Source: Peduovirus P22H4. Taken from it: a DNA stretch of 31,342 nucleotides. The position numbers were made by a program, and so were the translations under genes. The DNA is taken from sequence record NC_049385.1; one strand, 5' to 3'. The notes under the pieces were generated by a model. The model saw nothing but the letters and a program-made list of their open reading frames with translations. It was not told the DNA's origin and did not search any database. Positions 14,854 to 31,198 of the stretch are shown here, one piece after another; position 1 is the first letter of the stretch; each line of letters starts with the position of its first letter.

Positions 14854-15609
14854 CTATTCCTTGGCCTCTTTATTTTTCTCGCCATCGCCAATGTAAAGAA
14901 GATAATCGTTTAAGGATATCCTTCCGGAGGGGCCGGTCCATGTTATCCATCCGTTCTCACGAAGATTAAATAATGCTTCCATGAACTCATTATCGTTAAA
15001 AGAATGATCCTCTGAGAACAGAATGTTCATTTTTCTCAATAGTTCTTCCACTTTAATCTTTTCATATCGCCTTATCAGACTTAGTGCTTTACGACGCATT
15101 AAGATTGTAGGTACTGCTTGTGAACGAATGGTTTTTTGTATTCCACTATCAAGAACTTTCTTGATCTTACTCTCTAACTCTTTGATTTTAGTTTCATTAT
15201 CTCCATTGGACTTAAGCTTTTCATCAACGATGCAAATAATTTCCTGACTAATGCTGTTCTTGAGGTTGTTTATTTTTTCTTCATTGTTGAGAATCTCATC
15301 AGAGCTTCCTGCATGGGGTTTTTTCCATATGTGCTGACGCATATCCGTTACCGTATCTCTCATCATAGAGAATGTATCTGAATATAACTTGTCAAATATT
15401 TTTTCCAGTCGTTCGACACTTGCCTGGATGTCTTTTGCTGCTTTAGTTGTCTCTTTAGAAGCCTCATTCGACATTTTATAAAAAACAAAAGAAAGCCAAA
15501 TAGCCCCAATGGCGAGTACTAATGAGGCTATTGTGGCAATAAAACCTATTATTGTTATTGCTGTATCTAATGTACCTGCTGCATCTGTGACTACTGTTTC
15601 TGCTGCCAT
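14854..15609 (-). CDS. Hypothetical membrane-anchored protein; AT-rich cargo gene at the P2 Z/fun hotspot, candidate exclusion or defence function
   Basis: 251-aa ORF on the opposite strand to the flanking late operons; ATG start with an AGGA-type RBS; one predicted N-terminal TM helix (ITIIGFIATIASLVLAIGAIWLSFVFY) then a Lys/Glu-rich helical region; about 33% GC on the line I counted. Confidence 0.7.
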   Translation of the reverse strand: MAAETVVTDAAGTLDTAITIIGFIATIASLVLAIGAIWLSFVFYKMSNEASKETTKAAKDIQASVERLEKIFDKLYSDTFSMMRDTVTDMRQHIWKKPHAGSSDEILNNEEKINNLKNSISQEIICIVDEKLKSNGDNETKIKELESKIKKVLDSGIQKTIRSQAVPTILMRRKALSLIRRYEKIKVEELLRKMNILFSEDHSFNDNEFMEALFNLRENGWITWTGPSGRISLNDYLLYIGDGEKNKEAKE

Positions 15610-16119: not shown

Positions 16120-17310
16120 ATGAGTGACTATCATCACGGCGTGCAGGTGCTGGAGATTAACGACGGCACCCGCGTCATTTCCACTGTATCCACTGCCATT
16201 GTCGGCATGGTCTGCACGGCCAGCGATGCGGATGCGGAAACCTTCCCCCTCAATAAACCTGTGCTGATTACCAATGTGCAGAGCGCAATTGCAAAGGCCG
16301 GTAAAAAAGGCACGCTGGCGGCGTCGCTGCAGGCCATCGCTGACCAGTCAAAACCGGTCACCGTTGTCGTGCGTGTGGAAGACGGCACCGGCGACGACGA
16401 AGAAACGAAACTCGCGCAGACCGTTTCCAATATCATCGGCACCACCGACGAAAACGGTCAGTACACCGGACTGAAAGCCCTGATGGGCGCTGAGTCGGTT
16501 ACCGGCGTTAAACCGCGTATTCTCGGCGTGCCGGGACTGGACACCAAAGAGGTCGCCGTCGCACTGGCATCGGTATGCCAGGAACTGAATGCATTCGGGT
16601 ATATCAGCGCATGGGGCTGTAAGACCATTTCCGAGGCAAAAGCCTACCGTCAGAATTTCAGCCAGCGTGAGCTGATGGTCATCTGGCCGGATTTCCTCGC
16701 ATGGGATACGGTTACCAGTACCACCGCCACCGCGTATGCCACCGCCCGTGCGCTGGGTCTGCGCGCTAAAATCGACCAGGAGCAGGGCTGGCATAAAACG
16801 CTGTCCAACGTCGGGGTGAACGGTGTTACCGGCATCAGTGCATCCGTCTTCTGGGATTTGCAGAAGCCGGGCACTGATGCTGACCTGCTTAACGAGTCAG
16901 GCGTCACTACGCTGATTCGCCGCGACGGTTTCCGCTTCTGGGGTAACCGTACCTGCTCTGATGATCCGCTGTTCCTCTTTGAAAGTTACACCCGCACCGC
17001 GCAGGTACTGGCCGACACGATGGCTGAGGCGCACATGTGGGCTATTGATAAGCCCATCACCGCAACGCTGATTCGCGACATCATTGACGGCATCAATGCC
17101 AAATTCCGTGAACTGAAAAACAACGGTTATATCGTGGATGGTACATGCTGGTTCAGCGAAGAGTCCAACGATGCGGAAACCCTCAAGGCCGGCAAACTGT
17201 ATATCGACTACGACTATACCCCGGTGCCTCCTCTTGAAAATCTGACCCTGCGCCAGCGTATTACCGATAAATACCTGGCAAATCTGGTCACCTCGGTTAA
17301 CAGCAATTAA
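16120..17310 (+). CDS. FI: Tail sheath protein (P2 gpFI)
   Basis: 396-aa ORF, P2 FI length; followed by FII. Confidence 0.9.
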   Translation: MSDYHHGVQVLEINDGTRVISTVSTAIVGMVCTASDADAETFPLNKPVLITNVQSAIAKAGKKGTLAASLQAIADQSKPVTVVVRVEDGTGDDEETKLAQTVSNIIGTTDENGQYTGLKALMGAESVTGVKPRILGVPGLDTKEVAVALASVCQELNAFGYISAWGCKTISEAKAYRQNFSQRELMVIWPDFLAWDTVTSTTATAYATARALGLRAKIDQEQGWHKTLSNVGVNGVTGISASVFWDLQKPGTDADLLNESGVTTLIRRDGFRFWGNRTCSDDPLFLFESYTRTAQVLADTMAEAHMWAIDKPITATLIRDIIDGINAKFRELKNNGYIVDGTCWFSEESNDAETLKAGKLYIDYDYTPVPPLENLTLRQRITDKYLANLVTSVNSN

Positions 17311-17322
17311 GGAGCCTGACCG

Positions 17323-17841
17323 ATGGCAATGCCGCGCAAACTCAAGTTAATGAACGTCTTTCTGAACGGCTACAGCTATCAGGGCGTTGCAAAGTCCGTC
17401 ACGCTGCCAAAACTGACCCGTAAGCTCGAAAACTATCGCGGTGCGGGGATGAACGGCAGCGCACCGGTAGACCTCGGCCTTGATGATGATGCGCTGTCAA
17501 TGGAGTGGTCGCTCGGTGGCTTCCCGGATTCGGTTATCTGGGAGCTTTACGCCGCAACCGGTGTGGATGCCGTACCGATTCGTTTTGCAGGCTCTTACCA
17601 GCGTGACGATACCGGCGAAACGGTGGCCGTCGAGGTGGTCATGCGTGGACGTCAGAAAGAAATCGACACCGGCGAGGGTAAACAGGGAGAAGACACCGAG
17701 TCGAAAATCTCCGTGGTCTGCACCTATTTCCGGCTGACGATGGACGGTAAGGAGCTGGTCGAAATCGACACCATCAACATGATTGAGAAGGTGAACGGCG
17801 TCGACCGGCTGGAGCAACACCGCCGCAATATCGGCCTGTAA
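17323..17841 (+). CDS. FII: Tail tube protein (P2 gpFII)
   Basis: 172-aa ORF, P2 FII length; an AGGAG RBS precedes the ATG. Confidence 0.9.
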   Translation: MAMPRKLKLMNVFLNGYSYQGVAKSVTLPKLTRKLENYRGAGMNGSAPVDLGLDDDALSMEWSLGGFPDSVIWELYAATGVDAVPIRFAGSYQRDDTGETVAVEVVMRGRQKEIDTGEGKQGEDTESKISVVCTYFRLTMDGKELVEIDTINMIEKVNGVDRLEQHRRNIGL

Positions 17842-17897
17842 TTGTCATCCGGTCAGCCTGGCTGACCGGTTAACCCCGATTCAGAAGTGAGAAAACC

Positions 17898-18173
17898 ATG
17901 AACAAAGAAAACGTCATTACCCTGGACAATCCGGTCAAACGTGGTGAGCAGGTTATCGAACAGGTCACGCTGATGAAACCTAACGCCGGGACGCTGCGCG
18001 GTGTCAGTCTGGCTGCGGTCGCGAACTCCGAAGTCGATGCACTGATTAAGGTGCTGCCGCGCATGACTGCACCGATGCTGACCGAGCAGGAAGTCGCCGC
18101 ACTGGAACTGCCTGACCTTGTGGCGCTGGCCGGTAAGGTGGTCGGTTTTTTGTCGCCGAACTCGGTGCAGTGA
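17898..18173 (+). CDS. E: Tail assembly chaperone (P2 gpE)
   Basis: 91-aa ORF between FII and T; contains the slippery heptamer TTTTTTG near its 3' end. Confidence 0.85.
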   Translation: MNKENVITLDNPVKRGEQVIEQVTLMKPNAGTLRGVSLAAVANSEVDALIKVLPRMTAPMLTEQEVAALELPDLVALAGKVVGFLSPNSVQ

Positions 18174-18325
18174 CGTTTCCGAAAAATCTCTCGGTCGATG
18201 ACCTGATGGCGGATGTGGCAGTGATATTTCACTGGCCGCCATCAGAACTGTATCCCATGAGCCTGACCGAACTCATCACATGGCGCGAAAAGGCGCTCCG
18301 GCGAAGCGGAAACACGAATGAGTAA
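17898..18325 (+). CDS. E': Tail assembly chaperone frameshift product (P2 gpE+E'), made by -1 programmed ribosomal frameshifting
   Basis: T6G slippery run at 18146-18152 inside E; the -1 frame is open from there to TAA at 18323-18325 and encodes ...VAELGAVTFPKNLSVDDLMADVAVIFHWPPSELYPMSLTELITWREKALRRSGNTNE. Confidence 0.7.
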
Positions 18326-20765
18326 CAATGTAAAATTACAGGTATTGCTCAGGGCTGTTGACCAGGCATCCCGCCCGTTTAAATCCATCCGCACAGCGAG
18401 TAAGTCGCTGTCGGGGGATATCCGGGAAACACAAAAATCACTGCGCGAGCTGAACGGTCAGGCATCCCGTATTGAGGGATTCCGCAAGACCAGCGCACAG
18501 CTCGCCGTGACTGGTCATGCACTTGAAAAGGCACGGCAGGAAGCCGAAGCCCTTGCCACACAGTTTAAAAACACCGAACGTCCGACCCGTGCTCAGGCGA
18601 AAGTGCTGGAATCCGCAAAGCGAGCGGCGGAGGACTTACAGGCGAAATATAACCGCCTGACGGATTCCGTTAAACGCCAGCAGCGGGAACTGGCCGCTGT
18701 GGGAATTAATACCCGCAATCTTGCACATGATGAGCAGGGACTGAAAAACCGTATCAGTGAAACCACCGCACAGCTTAACCGACAGCGTGACGCGCTGGCG
18801 CGTGTCAGTGCACAACAGGCAAAACTTAACGCAGTAAAACAGCGTTATCAGGCCGGAAAGGAGCTGGCCGGAAATATGGCCTCAGTGGGCGCTGCCGGTG
18901 TGGGGATTGCTGCTGCGGGAACGATGGCCGGAGTTAAGCTGCTGATGCCCGGTTATGAGTTTGCGCAGAAAAACTCAGAATTGCAGGCCGTGCTCGGAGT
19001 GGCAAAAGACTCCGCCGAAATGACCGCACTACGCAAACAGGCGCGCCAGCTCGGCGATAATACCGCCGCCTCGGCGGATGATGCGGCCGGTGCACAGATA
19101 ATCATCGCGAAAGCGGGTGGGGATGTTGATGCCATTCAGGCGGCAACGCCGGTCACGCTGAATATGGCGCTGGCGAACCGCCGCACGATGGAAGAAAACG
19201 CCGCCCTGCTGATGGGGATGAAATCCGCCTTTCAGCTTTCAAACGATAAGGTCGCTCATATCGGGGATGTTCTCTCCATGACGATGAACAAAACCGCCGC
19301 CGATTTTGACGGCATGAGCGATGCGCTGACCTATGCCGCACCTGTGGCAAAAAATGCCGGTGTCAGCATTGAAGAAACCGCCGCAATGGTCGGGGCACTG
19401 CATGATGCAAAAATTACCGGTTCAATGGCGGGGACGGGAAGCCGTGCCGTGTTAAGCCGTCTGCAGGCACCGACGGGAAAAGCATGGGATGCACTCAAAG
19501 AGCTTGGTGTGAAAACCTCAGACAGCAAGGGAAACACCCGGCCAGTATTTACCATTCTGAAAGAAATGCAGGCCAGTTTTGAGAAAAACCGGCTCGGTAC
19601 TGCCCAGCAGGCTGAATACATGAAAACTATTTTCGGGGAGGAGGCCAGCTCAGCCGCCGCCGTGCTGATGACTGCCGCCTCAACCGGAAAGCTGGACAAA
19701 CTGACCGCTGCGTTTAAAGCCTCAGACGGGAAGACTGCCGAGCTGGTAAATATCATGCAGGACAACCTCGGCGGTGACTTTAAGGAGTTTCAGTCCGCTT
19801 ATGAGGCGGTAGGGACAGACCTGTTTGACCAGCAGGAAGGCGCACTGCGTAAGCTCACACAGACGGCCACAAAGTATGTGTTAAAACTCGACGGCTGGAT
19901 ACAGAAAAACAAATCACTGGCGTCAACCATTGGCATCATTGCCGGTGGCGCGCTGGCGCTTATTGGCATCATCGGTGCAATTGGTCTTGTAGCCTGGCCG
20001 GTTATCACCGGCATCAATGCCATCATCGCGGCAGCAGGCGCAATGGGTGCAATCTTCACGACGGTTGGCAGTGCTGTTATGACTGCTATCGGGGTGATTA
20101 GCTGGCCGGTTGTGGCAGTGGTGGCCGCCATTGTCGCCGGGGCGTTGCTTATCCGTAAATACTGGGAGCCTGTCAGCGCATTCTTTGGCGGTGTGGTGGA
20201 AGGGCTGAAAGCGGCATTTGCGCCGGTGGGAGAACTGTTCACGCCACTGAAGCCGGTGTTTGACTGGCTGGGGGAAAAGTTACAGGCTGCGTGGCAGTGG
20301 TTTAAAAACCTGATTGCACCGGTCAAAGCCACCCGGGACACCCTGAACCGTTGCCGTGACACGGGCGTCATGTTCGGGCAGGCACTGGCTGACGCGCTGA
20401 TGCTGCCGCTTAATGCGTTCAACAAATTACGCAGCGGCATTGACTGGGTACTGGAAAAGCTCGGGGTCATCAACAAAGAGTCAGACACACTTGACCAGAC
20501 CGCCGCCAGAACTCATGCCGCCACGTATGGCACCGGTGGTTATATTCCGGCGGCCAGCTCTTATGCAGGCTATCAGGCTTATCAGCCGGTCACGGCACCG
20601 GCTGGCCGCTCTTATGTGGACCAGAGTAAAAACGAATATCACATCAGCCTGACGGGTGGTACTGCACCGGGGACACAGCTTGACCGCCAGTTACAGGATG
20701 CGCTCGAAAAATACGAGCGGGATAAACGTGCGCGCGCCCGTGCCAGCATGATGCATGACGGTTAA
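18318..20765 (+). CDS. T: Tail tape measure protein (P2 gpT)
   Basis: 815-aa ORF, P2 gpT length; coiled-coil N-terminus and Gly/Ala-rich hydrophobic central segment. Confidence 0.9.
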   Translation: MSNNVKLQVLLRAVDQASRPFKSIRTASKSLSGDIRETQKSLRELNGQASRIEGFRKTSAQLAVTGHALEKARQEAEALATQFKNTERPTRAQAKVLESAKRAAEDLQAKYNRLTDSVKRQQRELAAVGINTRNLAHDEQGLKNRISETTAQLNRQRDALARVSAQQAKLNAVKQRYQAGKELAGNMASVGAAGVGIAAAGTMAGVKLLMPGYEFAQKNSELQAVLGVAKDSAEMTALRKQARQLGDNTAASADDAAGAQIIIAKAGGDVDAIQAATPVTLNMALANRRTMEENAALLMGMKSAFQLSNDKVAHIGDVLSMTMNKTAADFDGMSDALTYAAPVAKNAGVSIEETAAMVGALHDAKITGSMAGTGSRAVLSRLQAPTGKAWDALKELGVKTSDSKGNTRPVFTILKEMQASFEKNRLGTAQQAEYMKTIFGEEASSAAAVLMTAASTGKLDKLTAAFKASDGKTAELVNIMQDNLGGDFKEFQSAYEAVGTDLFDQQEGALRKLTQTATKYVLKLDGWIQKNKSLASTIGIIAGGALALIGIIGAIGLVAWPVITGINAIIAAAGAMGAIFTTVGSAVMTAIGVISWPVVAVVAAIVAGALLIRKYWEPVSAFFGGVVEGLKAAFAPVGELFTPLKPVFDWLGEKLQAAWQWFKNLIAPVKATRDTLNRCRDTGVMFGQALADALMLPLNAFNKLRSGIDWVLEKLGVINKESDTLDQTAARTHAATYGTGGYIPAASSYAGYQAYQPVTAPAGRSYVDQSKNEYHISLTGGTAPGTQLDRQLQDALEKYERDKRARARASMMHDG

Positions 20766-20779
20766 GGAGGTGACGAAAA

Positions 20780-21259
20780 ATGATGCTCGCGTTAGGTATG
20801 TTTGTTTTTATGCGCCAGACGCTGCCACACCAGACCATGCAGCGTGAATCAGATTATCGCTGGCCGTCAAATTCCCGTATCGGTAAACGGGATGCCTTTC
20901 AGTTTCTCGGTGTGGGTGAGGAAAACATCACGCTTGCCGGTGTGCTTTATCCCGAACTGACCGGCGGCAAGCTGACGATGACCACGCTCAGACTGATGGC
21001 AGAGGAAGGCCGGGCGTGGCCGTTGCTGGATGGCACCGGCATGATTTACGGCATGTATGTCATCGGCAGGGTGAGTGAAACAGGGAGTATTTTCTTTGCA
21101 GACGGCACACCACGGAAAATTGATTTTACGCTGTCGCTCACCCGCGTTGATGAGTCACTGGCCGCGCTTTATGGCGATATCGGTAAACAGGCAGAATCGC
21201 TCATCGGTAAGGCTGGCAGTATGGCGACTAAATTCACGGGTATGACGGGGGCGGGATAA
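20780..21259 (+). CDS. U: Tail protein (P2 gpU)
   Basis: 159-aa ORF after T, P2 gpU position and size. Confidence 0.88.
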   Translation: MMLALGMFVFMRQTLPHQTMQRESDYRWPSNSRIGKRDAFQFLGVGEENITLAGVLYPELTGGKLTMTTLRLMAEEGRAWPLLDGTGMIYGMYVIGRVSETGSIFFADGTPRKIDFTLSLTRVDESLAALYGDIGKQAESLIGKAGSMATKFTGMTGAG

Positions 21260-22422
21260 TGCTGGATGCGCTGACATTTGATGCAGGCAGTACGCTGACG
21301 CCGGATTACATGCTGATGCTCGACAGCAGGGATATTACCGGCAATATCAGCGACCGTCTGATGAGCATGACCCTGACGGATAACCGGGGCTTTGAGGCTG
21401 ACCAGCTTGATATTGAACTGAACGATGCCGACGGGCAGGTCGGGCTGCCGGTTCGTGGCGCTGTCCTGACGGTGTATATCGGCTGGAAAGGTTTTGCCCT
21501 GGTATGCAAGGGGAAATTTACCGTTGATGAGGTTGAACACCGGGGCGCGCCAGATGTGGTCACCATCCGCGCCCGGAGTGCAGATTTTCGCGGGACGCTC
21601 AATTCCCGCCGGGAAGGCTCCTGGCATGACACCACGCTCGGTGCGATTGTTGAGGCGATAGCCTCCCGTAACAGGCTGGAAGCCAGTGTTGCTCCGTCAC
21701 TGGCCGGAATAAAAATTCCACACATCGACCAGTCGCAGGAGTCCGATGCGAAATTTCTGACCCGTCTTGCAGAACGCAACGGCGGTGAGGTGTCGGTAAA
21801 AATGGGAAAACTGCTGTTTCTCAAAGCGGGGCAGGGGGTGACGGCCAGCGGTAAAAAAATCCCGCAGGTCACCATAACCCGCAGCGACGGCGACCGCCAC
21901 CATTTTGCGATTGCTGACCGTGGAGCCTATACCGGCGTAACGGCAAAGTGGCTTCACACCAAAGACCCGAAGCCGCAAAAGCAGAAGGTAAAACTGAAAC
22001 GCAAAAAGAAAGAAAAACACCTGCGCGCACTGGAGCACCCGAAAGCAAAACCGGTCACGCAGAAGAAAGCGCCAAAAGTACCGGAAACGCGCGAAGGTGA
22101 ATACATGGCCGGTGAGGCTGACAACGTTTTTGCCCTGACCACGGTATATGCCACAAAAGCGCAGGCCATGCGCGCCGCTCAGGCGAAGTGGGATAAATTG
22201 CAACGGGGTGTTGCGGAGTTCTCCATCAGCCTGGCTACTGGTCGGGCTGATATTTACACGGAAACACCGGTTAAAGTGTCAGGCTTTAAGCGCGTCATAG
22301 ACGAGCAGGACTGGACAATCACTAAGGTGACACATTTTCTGAATAATAGCGGCTTCACGACGTCCCTGGAGCTTGAGGTCAGGCTTTCTGATGTGGAGTA
22401 CGAAACAGAAGATGATGAGTGA
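21259..22422 (+). CDS. D: Tail protein / late control protein (P2 gpD)
   Basis: 387-aa ORF, P2 gpD length; start overlaps the U stop. Confidence 0.88.
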   Translation: MLDALTFDAGSTLTPDYMLMLDSRDITGNISDRLMSMTLTDNRGFEADQLDIELNDADGQVGLPVRGAVLTVYIGWKGFALVCKGKFTVDEVEHRGAPDVVTIRARSADFRGTLNSRREGSWHDTTLGAIVEAIASRNRLEASVAPSLAGIKIPHIDQSQESDAKFLTRLAERNGGEVSVKMGKLLFLKAGQGVTASGKKIPQVTITRSDGDRHHFAIADRGAYTGVTAKWLHTKDPKPQKQKVKLKRKKKEKHLRALEHPKAKPVTQKKAPKVPETREGEYMAGEADNVFALTTVYATKAQAMRAAQAKWDKLQRGVAEFSISLATGRADIYTETPVKVSGFKRVIDEQDWTITKVTHFLNNSGFTTSLELEVRLSDVEYETEDDE

Positions 22423-24059: not shown

Positions 24060-24359
24060 TTAACCAGTCTTTTGACCGGAGTGGGGCGACGTTGTTTCGT
24101 TTTGCCCAAAGTGTGCGAGAGCGGGCGCAATTTGCCCGGACTCAGGAGCGATCTGATTGGTCATGAACCATAAAGTGTATTTGGTGAATTGTGGGGTCTG
24201 CAGGATGTTCATCATGACATCTGTTGGAGGTGTTGAACGACCACTTTCATAGTAACTCAGCGTGCCATACGGAACCCCTGTTAAATCAGCAAGTTGTTGT
24301 CTGCTCAAATACTCTGATTTTCGCATTAAGACTATCTTCTCGCTTATCGTGTTTGACAT
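24060..24359 (-). CDS. C: Immunity repressor C
   Basis: 99-aa ORF, P2 C length, with a helix-turn-helix-like segment (LSRQQLADLTGVPYGTLSYYESG); divergent from cox. Confidence 0.88.
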   Translation of the reverse strand: MSNTISEKIVLMRKSEYLSRQQLADLTGVPYGTLSYYESGRSTPPTDVMMNILQTPQFTKYTLWFMTNQIAPESGQIAPALAHFGQNETTSPHSGQKTG

Positions 24360-29669: not shown

Positions 29670-30401
29670 ATGGATACTATAATCGCTTTTCTATCACTCG
29701 CTTTTTTCGTTGCTTTCTTCATCGGGTTAATCAAGCCATCACTGGTGCGAATGCCAAACCGCAAACGTGCAAGTGCGGTTTATCTCGGAGGAGGTTTTGT
29801 ATTGAGCATAATTGGTTCAATACTCTATCCAACAGAAAAAAGCCAGCCAGTTGCTAAAACTGAAACATCAACCGTTGCAGAACACAAAGTCCAAAAAACA
29901 TTCGAATATGGTGAAAAAACACTCAAGGAATATCGGAACGAGTCAAAGAAAACACGACACGATATTGTGAATAGTTACATTGATTTTAAGGAAGTTCCAG
30001 CCACCGCGTCAGATGCGTTTTATGCCTGCATGAGTGAGTATACATTTACCAAAGATGATGAGTTGAAACTCGGTGATGTTCTTGGGTGGTGCTTTAATGA
30101 TTATGAAAATGACCCGAGTTCACTAAACAATAAAATCAATCTTGATACATTTCAGAGTAATTTTAGTGGTTGGGATGGTTCTTATCGTCCATTGGAAAAA
30201 CTAATTAAAGATAATATGAACGATGATTCATCTTATAAACATGTGTCAACGGTATATCATCTGGTTTTGAATAAAGACCCGCATGCCATTGTGAAAACCA
30301 CGTTTCGCGGAACTAATGCTTATGGCGGAGTGGTGAAACAGACGATTGCTGCGCGTGTCAATGTAGAAACAGGTGAGGTTGTATCAATTATAAGTGAGTG
30401 A
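29670..30401 (+). CDS. Hypothetical membrane protein (two predicted N-terminal TM helices); cargo gene 1 at the P2 tin/old hotspot
   Basis: ATG at 29670 preceded by AAAAAGGA; 243 aa; TM segments IIAFLSLAFFVAFFIGLI and AVYLGGGFVLSIIGSILY, then a soluble domain; AT-rich; no Walker A motif. Confidence 0.65.
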   Translation: MDTIIAFLSLAFFVAFFIGLIKPSLVRMPNRKRASAVYLGGGFVLSIIGSILYPTEKSQPVAKTETSTVAEHKVQKTFEYGEKTLKEYRNESKKTRHDIVNSYIDFKEVPATASDAFYACMSEYTFTKDDELKLGDVLGWCFNDYENDPSSLNNKINLDTFQSNFSGWDGSYRPLEKLIKDNMNDDSSYKHVSTVYHLVLNKDPHAIVKTTFRGTNAYGGVVKQTIAARVNVETGEVVSIISE

Positions 30402-30499: not shown

Positions 30500-31198
30500 A
30501 TGAATAGATGTAAATATATTTTAAGAGGTTTGTTGCTGAAGTTTAAAAGTATAAGTTCTATGCATTTGTTATTTGTTTTAATAACGGCTTGTCTATTCTT
30601 TTTTATAGGGTGTTACGTGGGTTATAGTGGTATTGGTTTGAATGGTGACACTAAATACCAATTAATTACAATACCTTTTTTGACCATGTTGGGTACTTGG
30701 GTTTCTGGGGTGGGAGCATTTTCTGCTGTTGCGACATCATTGTTGTTGGCACACCGTTCGCTAAAGGAAAATTCAGAAGAAATTGCTATTCGATATAGCA
30801 TGGTGTTAATGCCATCAATGTACTTACCTAGCACTACAGATACAGCAATATCAATAACCATAACAAACAAAAGAAAAGTAAGGAGTAATATTCAATCGGT
30901 TGTTTTGCAATTTTCTAATAATAAAGCAATGAATATATTGGTAAACCCCGGGACGCTTATCTCTGGCAAGTTACCGCATGTTTTAGAAGACTATGGTGAT
31001 ATATTGACGCTTATAATTCCAGAGAGCATTATCGCATCAGTAACTGATGAGGGGTTCGTAAAAGAATGTCAGGGGAATACTCTTGGAGAAGGTAGTGTCG
31101 TAGTTCACACAACGACAAAAACATTTGTAAAAAAATTAACATTACCTCAAATTAAGCCATTTAATGATAAATTTAAGTCTGTATTGACGAAACCGTAA
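30500..31198 (+). CDS. Hypothetical membrane protein (two predicted TM helices); cargo gene 2 at the P2 tin/old hotspot
   Basis: 232-aa ORF; TM segments LLFVLITACLFFFIGCYVGY and LITIPFLTMLGTWVSGVGAFSAVATSLLL, then a Ser/Thr/Val-rich domain; about 25% GC on the line counted; start uncertain (ATG 30500 has a weak RBS, alternative ATG at 30560). Confidence 0.6.
   Translation: MNRCKYILRGLLLKFKSISSMHLLFVLITACLFFFIGCYVGYSGIGLNGDTKYQLITIPFLTMLGTWVSGVGAFSAVATSLLLAHRSLKENSEEIAIRYSMVLMPSMYLPSTTDTAISITITNKRKVRSNIQSVVLQFSNNKAMNILVNPGTLISGKLPHVLEDYGDILTLIIPESIIASVTDEGFVKECQGNTLGEGSVVVHTTTKTFVKKLTLPQIKPFNDKFKSVLTKP

What the first reader, a model, noticed from the sequence alone, without database searches (positions are those of the whole stretch)
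18143..18325. Programmed -1 frameshift site giving the E+E' tail chaperone fusion
A G-GTT-TTT-TG slippery run (T6 at 18146-18151) sits 7 codons before the E stop. The -1 frame is open from there to TAA at 18323-18325, overlapping the T start, and would add a 58-aa extension ending ...LITWREKALRRSGNTNE. This mirrors the conserved E/E' (lambda G/GT-like) recoding upstream of the tape-measure gene. It is real biology that standard ORF callers miss.
Basis: partly seen in the sequence, partly recalled or inferred. Interest (0 to 1): 0.45.

Follow-up and report, generated by a model that had tools for sequence, protein, structure and literature searches.

The report
P2 phage E/E+E' tail frameshift
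This is the well-known programmed -1 ribosomal frameshift that lets P2-type phages make two tail-assembly chaperones (E and the longer E+E') from one start codon; here it is base-for-base identical to the site tested experimentally in phage P2, so it is real but ordinary.

Summary
It is already known biology.

- **Source:** the window is a P2-like phage genome, 100% identical to Escherichia phage 9W over the stretch compared.
- **Anatomy:** gene E (17898-18173, 91 aa) carries an in-phase T_TTT_TTG heptamer (18146-18152) inside the only 34-nt zone where the 0 and -1 frames are both open. The -1 frame then runs to TAA 18323-18325 and overlaps the tape-measure (T) start, ATG 18318.
- **Product:** the predicted fusion is 142 aa. 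Pfam PF10109 matches the E part and PF06528 (Phage_P2_GpE) matches the -1 extension.
- **Identity to P2:** window 18102-18340 matches reference P2 (NC_001895) at every base. That record annotates a joined E+E' CDS with a -1 frameshift at this point.
- **Relatives:** in 18 diverse relatives, E' is always in the -1 frame and an in-phase X_XXY_YYZ heptamer is always present (T_TTT_TTG in 14). Codon choice at the site runs against normal usage. In 12 of 18 the E' frame has no start codon before its conserved core.
- **Stimulators:** I found no conserved stimulatory RNA structure.
- **Annotation gap:** the 9W GenBank record miscalls E' as a separate GTG-started hypothetical protein, so ORF callers do miss the fusion.

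Small open points are the junction residue (Leu or Phe) and a possible Shine-Dalgarno-like stimulator.

The parts
17323..17841 (+). FII, tail tube protein gene (upstream neighbour that defines the conserved context)
   Evidence: 172-aa ORF; annotated 'major tail tube protein GpFII' in the 100%-identical 9W record.
17898..18173 (+). Gene E: 0-frame product gpE, 91 aa, tail assembly chaperone
   Evidence: ORF; Pfam PF10109 Phage_TAC_7 at 47 bits against a cut-off of 25; annotated E in P2 NC_001895.
18137..18170 (+). Overlap zone: the only 34 nt in which both the 0 frame (E) and the -1 frame (E') are open, so any shift that yields E+E' must happen here
   Evidence: The -1 frame is closed by TAA 18134-18136 and the 0 frame by TGA 18171-18173.
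18146..18152 (+). Slippery heptamer T_TTT_TTG (X_XXY_YYZ in 0-frame phase); P-site codon TTT (Phe84), A-site codon TTG (Leu85)
   Evidence: Sequence; identical in P2; homologous in-phase heptamer in 18/18 relatives, TTTTTTG in 14; T6 invariant in 79/79 near-identical IMG/VR loci; published as the P2 shift site (PMC3091744).
18152..18325 (+). E' coding segment in the -1 frame (57 codons plus TAA); translated only as the C-terminal extension of E. The full CDS is join(17898..18152,18152..18325), 142 aa
   Evidence: Frame analysis; Pfam PF06528 Phage_P2_GpE at 78.7 bits; phrog_1756 covers fusion residues 82-142; 142-aa gpE+E' proteins at 98-99% identity in public databases.
18170..18172 (+). GTG that ORF callers use as a false start for E'
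   Evidence: No SD-like sequence upstream. In 21 of 79 close relatives the E stop is TAA/TAG, so this codon becomes GTA/ATA while E' stays intact.
18318..20765 (+). Gene T, tail tape-measure protein; its ATG overlaps the E' stop (ATGAGTAA)
   Evidence: 815-aa ORF; annotated GpT in 9W and T in P2.

Best explanation
This is the programmed -1 ribosomal frameshift of the P2-type tail chaperone genes E and E+E'.

Most ribosomes translate E from ATG 17898 to TGA 18171 and make the 91-aa gpE. A minority slip back one base on T_TTT_TTG (18146-18152). At that moment tRNA-Phe sits on TTT in the P site and tRNA-Leu on TTG in the A site. Those ribosomes continue in the -1 frame to TAA 18323 and make a 142-aa protein: the first 85 residues of E plus a 57-residue E' domain.

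Shown here: the sequence anatomy, base-for-base identity to the P2 site, family membership of both halves, and conservation of the heptamer and of the frame relationship.

Taken from the literature on P2, which has an identical sequence: the fusion is actually made, at a few-fold higher rate than lambda's G-T (about 1 in 30).

Inferred by analogy with lambda G/GT: the shared E part binds the tape-measure protein T, the E' part recruits the tail tube protein FII, and the fixed E:E+E' ratio set by slip efficiency is what tail assembly needs.

Inferred from the conserved TTG: both tRNAs slip together, which puts Leu at the junction.
For: 1. Anatomy: the heptamer is in phase and lies inside the only 34-nt zone where both frames are open; the E' stop overlaps the T start.
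2. Identity: window 18102-18340 is 100% identical to P2 NC_001895. That record carries a joined E+E' CDS and a misc_feature 'site of -1 translational frameshift' at the homologous position.
3. Families: PF10109 on E and PF06528 on the -1 extension, both well above their cut-offs. PHROG tail families agree.
4. tblastn of the fusion finds 416 phage records; in 399 both halves lie adjacent as two pieces.
5. In 18 relatives with 43% mean nucleotide identity, E' is in the -1 frame in 18/18 and an in-phase X_XXY_YYZ is present in 18/18. The heptamer is T_TTT_TTG in 14; the others are T_TTT_TTT, T_TTT_TTC, A_AAT_TTT and G_GGA_AAG.
6. Nucleotide-level selection: elsewhere in E/E' only 6% of Leu codons are TTG and 15% of third positions are T, yet NNT-TTT-TTG is kept even in phages with 60-67% GC.
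7. E' cannot start on its own in most relatives: 12/18 have no start codon before the conserved core.
8. Literature: P2 shifts at TTTTTTG to give a 91-aa E and a 142-aa E+E' (PMC3091744). The shift is conserved among long-tailed phages and is 2- to 3-fold more efficient in P2 than in lambda (PMC5009743).
9. Public databases hold 142-aa gpE+E' proteins 98-99% identical to the predicted fusion.
Against: - Nothing in the sequence argues against it.
- No conserved stimulatory RNA structure was found. The 60 nt 3' of the site fold no better than shuffles (z = -0.01). The hairpin at 18203-18245 is not conserved. The upstream terminator-like hairpin is neither significant nor conserved. Published statements say the same for P2 (PMC3091744).
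- Protein production, efficiency and essentiality were not and cannot be measured here.
- The primary paper (Christie et al. 2002) could not be opened, so it is cited second-hand.
- The junction residue is not settled. Database entries model it as either GFL|V or GFF|V.
Confidence: 0.94

Rival explanations
1. Transcriptional slippage. RNA polymerase adds one extra U on the T6 run in a fraction of transcripts, and normal translation of those mRNAs gives the same fusion with Phe at the junction (G-F-F-V).
For: The site is a homopolymer run. Some database entries model the junction as GFF|V (P0001, P0003). Natural T-run length variants exist: T4 in L021-L024, which fuses the frames, and P0014 (GFFV) implies T7. 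So the run can change length at the DNA level.
Against: - Six T's is shorter than the runs usually associated with efficient polymerase slippage (general knowledge).
- Relatives without a homopolymer still keep a canonical ribosomal X_XXY_YYZ motif: A_AAT_TTT in P88_4B11 and G_GGA_AAG in PHL101.
- The terminal G and the rare TTG codon are conserved against codon bias. That fits A-site tRNA slippage and is irrelevant to a polymerase.
- The literature treats P2 as ribosomal frameshifting.
Confidence: 0.03
2. E' is an independent small gene translated from GTG 18170 as a 51-aa protein, as annotated in the phage 9W GenBank record. No fusion is made.
For: An ORF caller finds GTG 18170 to TAA 18325. 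Several GenBank records list it as a separate CDS.
Against: - No SD-like sequence precedes GTG 18170.
- 12 of 18 relatives have no ATG/GTG/TTG in the E' frame before the conserved PF06528 core.
- In 21 of 79 near-identical loci the codon is GTA/ATA while E' stays intact.
- phrog_1756 aligns to fusion residues 82-142, which start upstream of the GTG codon.
- P2's curated annotation joins E and E'.
Confidence: 0.02
3. Chance overlap or a decayed gene. The T-run and the open -1 frame are coincidental or reflect a frameshift mutation in a once-continuous gene, with no functional recoding.
For: In-phase heptamers are common in this window (41 in 11,915 codons). Some contigs carry fused versions with T4.
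Against: The two-frame arrangement, the heptamer and its phase are conserved across Peduoviridae-like phages of many host genera and in 79/79 close relatives. A mutational accident would not be maintained like this.
Confidence: 0.01

Closest known systems
Bacteriophage P2 genes E and E+E' (FETUD tail operon; Christie, Temple, Bartlett and Goodwin 2002, J Bacteriol 184:6522, cited through PMC3091744 and PMC5009743; RefSeq NC_001895 P2p25/P2p26)
   Same: Same gene order (FII, E, E', T); same T_TTT_TTG heptamer; same 91-aa and 142-aa products. Nucleotides are 100% identical from window 18102 to 18340, which includes the slip site and all of E'.
   Different: Only a few substitutions in the 5' part of E, 11 nucleotide differences in the 461-nt alignment. 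They include Asn29 here where some P2-group entries have Ser. No functional difference is expected.
Phage lambda G / G-T tail assembly chaperones with a programmed -1 frameshift (Levin et al. 1993; Xu, Hendrix and Duda 2004, cited through PMC5009743 and PMC3091744)
   Same: Two overlapping ORFs lie between the major tail/tube gene and the tape-measure gene. An in-phase X_XXY_YYZ heptamer sits 5-6 codons before the first stop. The second ORF's stop overlaps the tape-measure start. The fusion shares its N-terminus with the short product.
   Different: - The heptamer is G_GGA_AAG in lambda and T_TTT_TTG here.
- The lambda extension is 144 aa (fusion 279 aa); here it is 57 aa (fusion 142 aa).
- There is no detectable sequence similarity.
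- Lambda has a non-contractile tail and P2 a contractile one.
- Reported efficiency is 2- to 3-fold higher in P2 (PMC5009743).
Solved tail assembly chaperone structures: HK97 TAC (PDB 2ob9) and B. subtilis prophage protein YqbN (PDB 3klu)

Membership tests
P2-type E / E+E' tail chaperone pair (Peduoviridae) | The 0-frame product belongs to Pfam PF10109 (Phage_TAC_7: tail assembly chaperone E/41/14) | tested here: met
   47 bits against a gathering cut-off of 25, residues 7-85.
P2-type E / E+E' tail chaperone pair (Peduoviridae) | The -1 frame extension belongs to Pfam PF06528 (Phage_P2_GpE) | tested here: met
   78.7 bits against a cut-off of 23 on the 57-aa extension; 76.3 bits on the fusion, residues 104-139.
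P2-type E / E+E' tail chaperone pair (Peduoviridae) | In-phase T_TTT_TTG slippery heptamer inside the E/E' overlap | tested here: met
   18146-18152, in phase, inside the 34-nt overlap zone. Identical to P2. Published as the P2 shift sequence (PMC3091744).
P2-type E / E+E' tail chaperone pair (Peduoviridae) | Position between the tail tube gene FII and the tape-measure gene T in the F-E-T-U-D operon | tested here: met
   Order FI 16120-17310, FII 17323-17841, E 17898-18173, E' to 18325, T 18318-20765, U 20780-21259, D 21259-22422.
P2-type E / E+E' tail chaperone pair (Peduoviridae) | The fusion protein is actually produced at a set fraction and is essential for tail assembly | not testable with these tools
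   Reported for P2, whose site is identical in sequence (PMC3091744; PMC5009743). The primary paper could not be opened.
Conserved G/GT-type tail chaperone frameshift of long-tailed dsDNA phages (Xu, Hendrix, Duda 2004) | Two overlapping ORFs directly upstream of the tape-measure gene, the second in another frame and without its own translation start | tested here: met
   E' is in the -1 frame in 18/18 relatives. There is no start codon before the conserved core in 12/18 and no SD-like sequence in any. GTG 18170 is lost in 21/79 close relatives.
Conserved G/GT-type tail chaperone frameshift of long-tailed dsDNA phages (Xu, Hendrix, Duda 2004) | Canonical slippery sequence X_XXY_YYZ in the overlap | tested here: met
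   Present and in phase in 18/18 relatives. Lambda's own G_GGA_AAG shows the same placement.
Conserved G/GT-type tail chaperone frameshift of long-tailed dsDNA phages (Xu, Hendrix, Duda 2004) | Sequence homology to lambda G and T proteins | tested here: not met
   BLASTP of the two fusions gives no alignment with E <= 100. This class is defined by arrangement, not sequence, so the result lowers 'homologue of lambda G/GT' but not 'works like it'.
Conserved G/GT-type tail chaperone frameshift of long-tailed dsDNA phages (Xu, Hendrix, Duda 2004) | Tail-assembly-chaperone fold of the N-terminal product | tested here: inconclusive
Conserved G/GT-type tail chaperone frameshift of long-tailed dsDNA phages (Xu, Hendrix, Duda 2004) | The short product binds the tape measure and the extension binds the tail tube protein; neither is in the virion | not testable with these tools
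   Known for lambda (PMC5009743). Inferred by analogy for gpE and gpE+E'.

The most novel reading that the evidence does not exclude
The least ordinary reading still open concerns how the shift is tuned, not whether it exists. Two elements are in play.

1. The Shine-Dalgarno-like TAAGGTGGT at 18133-18141 (AGGTG lies 6 nt 5' of the heptamer) may pair with 16S rRNA. That pairing could be the unrecognised stimulator behind P2's 2- to 3-fold higher efficiency relative to lambda.
2. A share of the product may carry Phe rather than Leu at the junction, through P-site-only slippage or polymerase slippage.

Related (A/G)AGGTG or GGAGGT strings occur at the same place in roughly half to two-thirds of the 18 relatives. 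They also encode a conserved Lys/Glu-Val, so coding constraint explains them equally well.
Probability: 0.12. Interest if true: 0.3.

Novelty: already known. Interest (0 to 1): 0.08.

Why it matters
For biology it adds nothing new. The P2 E/E+E' frameshift was demonstrated in 2002 and is a textbook member of the conserved tail-chaperone recoding class.

Its practical value is for annotation. The public record identical to this window (phage 9W), and many other Peduoviridae records, list E' as a separate hypothetical protein or omit it. The correct feature is join(17898..18152,18152..18325) with ribosomal_slippage.

The comparative table is a small by-product for anyone building recoding-aware annotators. 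It lists five heptamer types across the family, all in phase and all in the -1 frame.

Tried and rejected
- **Downstream stimulatory structure.** The 60 nt and 45 nt after the site fold no better than shuffles (z = -0.01 and -0.09). A strong hairpin at 18203-18245 (z = -3.3 in the 100-nt fold) lies 50 nt away. Across 18 relatives it is paired in only 61% of cells against 58.7% for shuffles. I rejected it as a by-product of the conserved MAD and WPP coding motifs.
- **Upstream terminator-like hairpin plus T-run (18125-18146).** Three such hits were found against 1.4 +/- 1.3 expected. Folding the 36 nt upstream in all 18 relatives gave z between -1.9 and +1.5 and no common hairpin. Rejected.
- **Rfam.** No family near threshold over 17700-18500.
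- **Sequence search of the PDB.** No hit with E <= 1. Foldseek against the PDB gave nothing significant.
- **Broadening with IMG/VR.** It returned only near-identical loci (93-100%), so it added no diversity. It was still useful for T-run stability and for the loss of GTG 18170.
- **Primary paper.** Christie et al. 2002 is not held under its DOI or PMC id, so I used secondary citations.
- **Cargo ORFs.** Pfam and PADLOC scans of three low-GC ORFs gave no hit above the cut-offs.

Full report
**What is there.**

The window is a P2-like myophage genome. The stretch 17323-18400 is 100% identical to Escherichia phage 9W (OM475431) and about 98% identical to some 70 other Peduovirus genomes. Gene order around the finding is FI (16120-17310), FII (17323-17841), E (17898-18173), T (18318-20765), U and D.

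- The T6 run is at 18146-18151.
- E ends at TGA 18171-18173.
- The -1 frame is open to TAA 18323-18325.
- That stop overlaps the ATG of T at 18318.

In the 0 frame the codons are GGT TTT TTG, so the canonical slippery heptamer is T_TTT_TTG at 18146-18152. The -1 frame is closed by TAA at 18134-18136. A shift that joins E to the downstream frame can therefore only happen within 18137-18170, and the heptamer is the only slippery motif in that zone. Slipping after Leu85 gives a 142-aa protein: 85 residues of E plus 57 new residues.

**Is it more than chance?**

A heptamer alone is weak evidence. In-phase X_XXY_YYZ motifs occur 41 times in 11,915 codons of long ORFs in this window. One inside the 11-codon overlap zone has a chance probability of about 0.04. 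The case rests on homology and conservation:
- Pfam PF10109 (tail assembly chaperone E/41/14) matches E, and PF06528 (Phage_P2_GpE) matches the -1 extension at 78.7 bits against a cut-off of 23. PHROG tail families agree.
- Reference P2 (NC_001895) annotates a joined E+E' CDS, 'shares amino terminus with gpE; -1 frameshift', with a frameshift-site feature at the homologous base.
- The window is identical to P2 at every base from 18102 to 18340.

**Comparative test.**

tblastn with the predicted fusion finds 416 phage records. In 399 of them both halves lie side by side as two pieces. I took 18 genomes spanning hosts from Escherichia to Burkholderia, Ralstonia, Pseudomonas, Vibrio, Shewanella and Mannheimia, with 43% mean nucleotide identity.

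| Feature | Result |
|---|---|
| E' in the -1 frame relative to E | 18 of 18 |
| In-phase X_XXY_YYZ in the overlap | 18 of 18 |
| T_TTT_TTG | 14 |
| T_TTT_TTT | 1 (Smp131) |
| T_TTT_TTC | 1 (Vibrio MAR) |
| A_AAT_TTT | 1 (P88_4B11) |
| G_GGA_AAG, at a different position | 1 (PHL101) |

Codon usage shows selection on the nucleotides themselves. Elsewhere in E/E', TTG is 14 of 250 Leu codons and T is 15% of third positions. Yet NNT-TTT-TTG is kept even in phages with 60-67% GC. In 79 near-identical IMG/VR loci the T6 run never varies.

**Rivals.**

*Independent translation of E' from GTG 18170.* This is how the 9W record and several others annotate it. It fails on four counts:
- No Shine-Dalgarno-like sequence precedes the GTG.
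- 12 of 18 relatives have no start codon at all in the E' frame before the conserved core.
- 21 of 79 close relatives have TAA or TAG as the E stop, which turns this GTG into GTA/ATA without harming E'.
- The PHROG profile aligns from fusion residue 82, upstream of the GTG.

*Transcriptional slippage on the T-run.* It cannot be excluded by sequence alone, but it is disfavoured. The run is short. The non-homopolymer variants in relatives keep the ribosomal X_XXY_YYZ pattern. The conserved rare TTG codon makes sense only for A-site tRNA slippage.

**Stimulators.**

I found none. The sequence just 3' of the site folds no better than shuffles. A strong hairpin 50 nt downstream is not conserved. 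A terminator-like hairpin abutting the T-run is neither significant nor conserved. Rfam has no match. This agrees with the published statement that P2-type sites lack downstream structure (PMC3091744).

A Shine-Dalgarno-like TAAGGTGGT sits at 18133-18141, 6 nt upstream. I could not separate it from coding constraint, because it encodes Lys-Val.

**Mechanism and function.**

Shown here:
- the anatomy of the site;
- its identity to P2;
- family membership of both halves;
- conservation of the heptamer and the frame relationship.

From the literature:
- P2 shifts at TTTTTTG to make a 91-aa E and a 142-aa E+E' (PMC3091744).
- This kind of shift is conserved among long-tailed phages.
- It is 2- to 3-fold more efficient in P2 than lambda's roughly 1:30 (PMC5009743).

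Inferred by analogy with lambda G/GT:
- The E part binds the tape measure.
- The E' part recruits the tube protein.
- The slip rate fixes their ratio.

Lambda's own locus shows the same layout: G_GGA_AAG five codons before the G stop, and a T stop that overlaps the H start. There is no sequence similarity.

**Verdict.**

The feature is already known and here is identical to the experimentally studied P2 site. Interest is low.

The residual questions are the junction residue, since databases model both GFL|V and GFF|V, and whether the upstream Shine-Dalgarno-like string tunes efficiency.

Noticed in passing
L021-L024 (Logan contigs of SRR23384534-SRR23384632), locus positions about 1750-1765: A P2-like E/E' homologue (P0022, 144 aa, 66% identical by BLASTP) has GGTTTTGTC, a T4 run where this window has T6. 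E and E' are fused into one ORF, no free E can be made, and no frameshift is needed. It is seen on 11 contigs of one run series, so probably one lineage. Other database proteins show the same G-F|V junction (P0007, P0009, P0017, P0020) or G-F-F-V, which implies T7 (P0014). These could be decayed prophages, real variants or assembly errors.
   Followed up: partly
window 18146-18152 (junction of the fusion): Public databases disagree on the junction residue. The phage Wphi gpE+E' entry reads ...GFL|VAEL, while NCBI E. coli 'GpE family phage tail protein' entries read ...GFF|VAEL. No evidence seen here decides between them.
   Followed up: partly
window 18133-18141: A Shine-Dalgarno-like TAAGGTGGT (AGGTG core at 18135-18139) lies 6 nt 5' of the slippery heptamer and overlaps the TAA that closes the -1 frame. 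Similar (A/G)AGGTG or GGAGGT strings occur at the same place in roughly half to two-thirds of the 18 relatives. It also encodes a conserved Lys/Glu-Val, so a stimulatory role is untested.
   Followed up: partly
window 18203-18245: A strong hairpin lies inside E' (CTGATGGCGG...CCGCCATCAG with an inner CAGTGA/TCACTG stem). The 100-nt fold has z = -3.3. It is poorly conserved in relatives (61% of cells paired against 58.7% in shuffles), so it is probably a by-product of the conserved DDLMAD and HWPPSE motifs.
   Followed up: yes
L016 (P88_4B11), L019 (Mannheimia PHL101), L017 (Vibrio MAR), L009 (Smp131): Relatives use other slippery heptamers in the same gene pair: A_AAT_TTT (shifted 3 nt), G_GGA_AAG (lambda-type, further downstream), T_TTT_TTC and T_TTT_TTT. 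All are in phase and all lead to the -1 frame.
   Followed up: partly
window 18170-18325: The GenBank record identical to the window (OM475431, phage 9W), and several other Peduoviridae records, annotate E' as a separate 'hypothetical protein / P2 GpE family protein', or do not annotate it at all, in place of a joined E+E' CDS.
   Followed up: yes
window 24060-24359 (- strand): A 99-aa ORF lies between the integrase and cox genes, where P2 has its immunity repressor gene C (gene order from my own knowledge of P2). It is not annotated in the 9W record. I ran no family scan or comparison on it.
   Followed up: no
window 14854-15609 (- strand); 29670-30401 and 30500-31198 (+ strand): Three ORFs of 232-251 aa lie in low-GC islands (0.36-0.39 against about 0.56 in the morphogenesis genes). 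They occupy the two positions where P2 carries its exclusion genes: Z/fun between G and FI, and old/tin at the right end. None has a Pfam hit above the cut-offs or any PADLOC hit. They are candidate uncharacterised cargo or defence genes.
   Followed up: partly
L078 and L081 (IMGVR_UViG_2695420821_000010): One viral contig carries two matches about 6 kb apart: a full E/E' copy and a second match covering only residues 1-105. This may be a tandem or partly duplicated prophage. I did not examine it.
   Followed up: no
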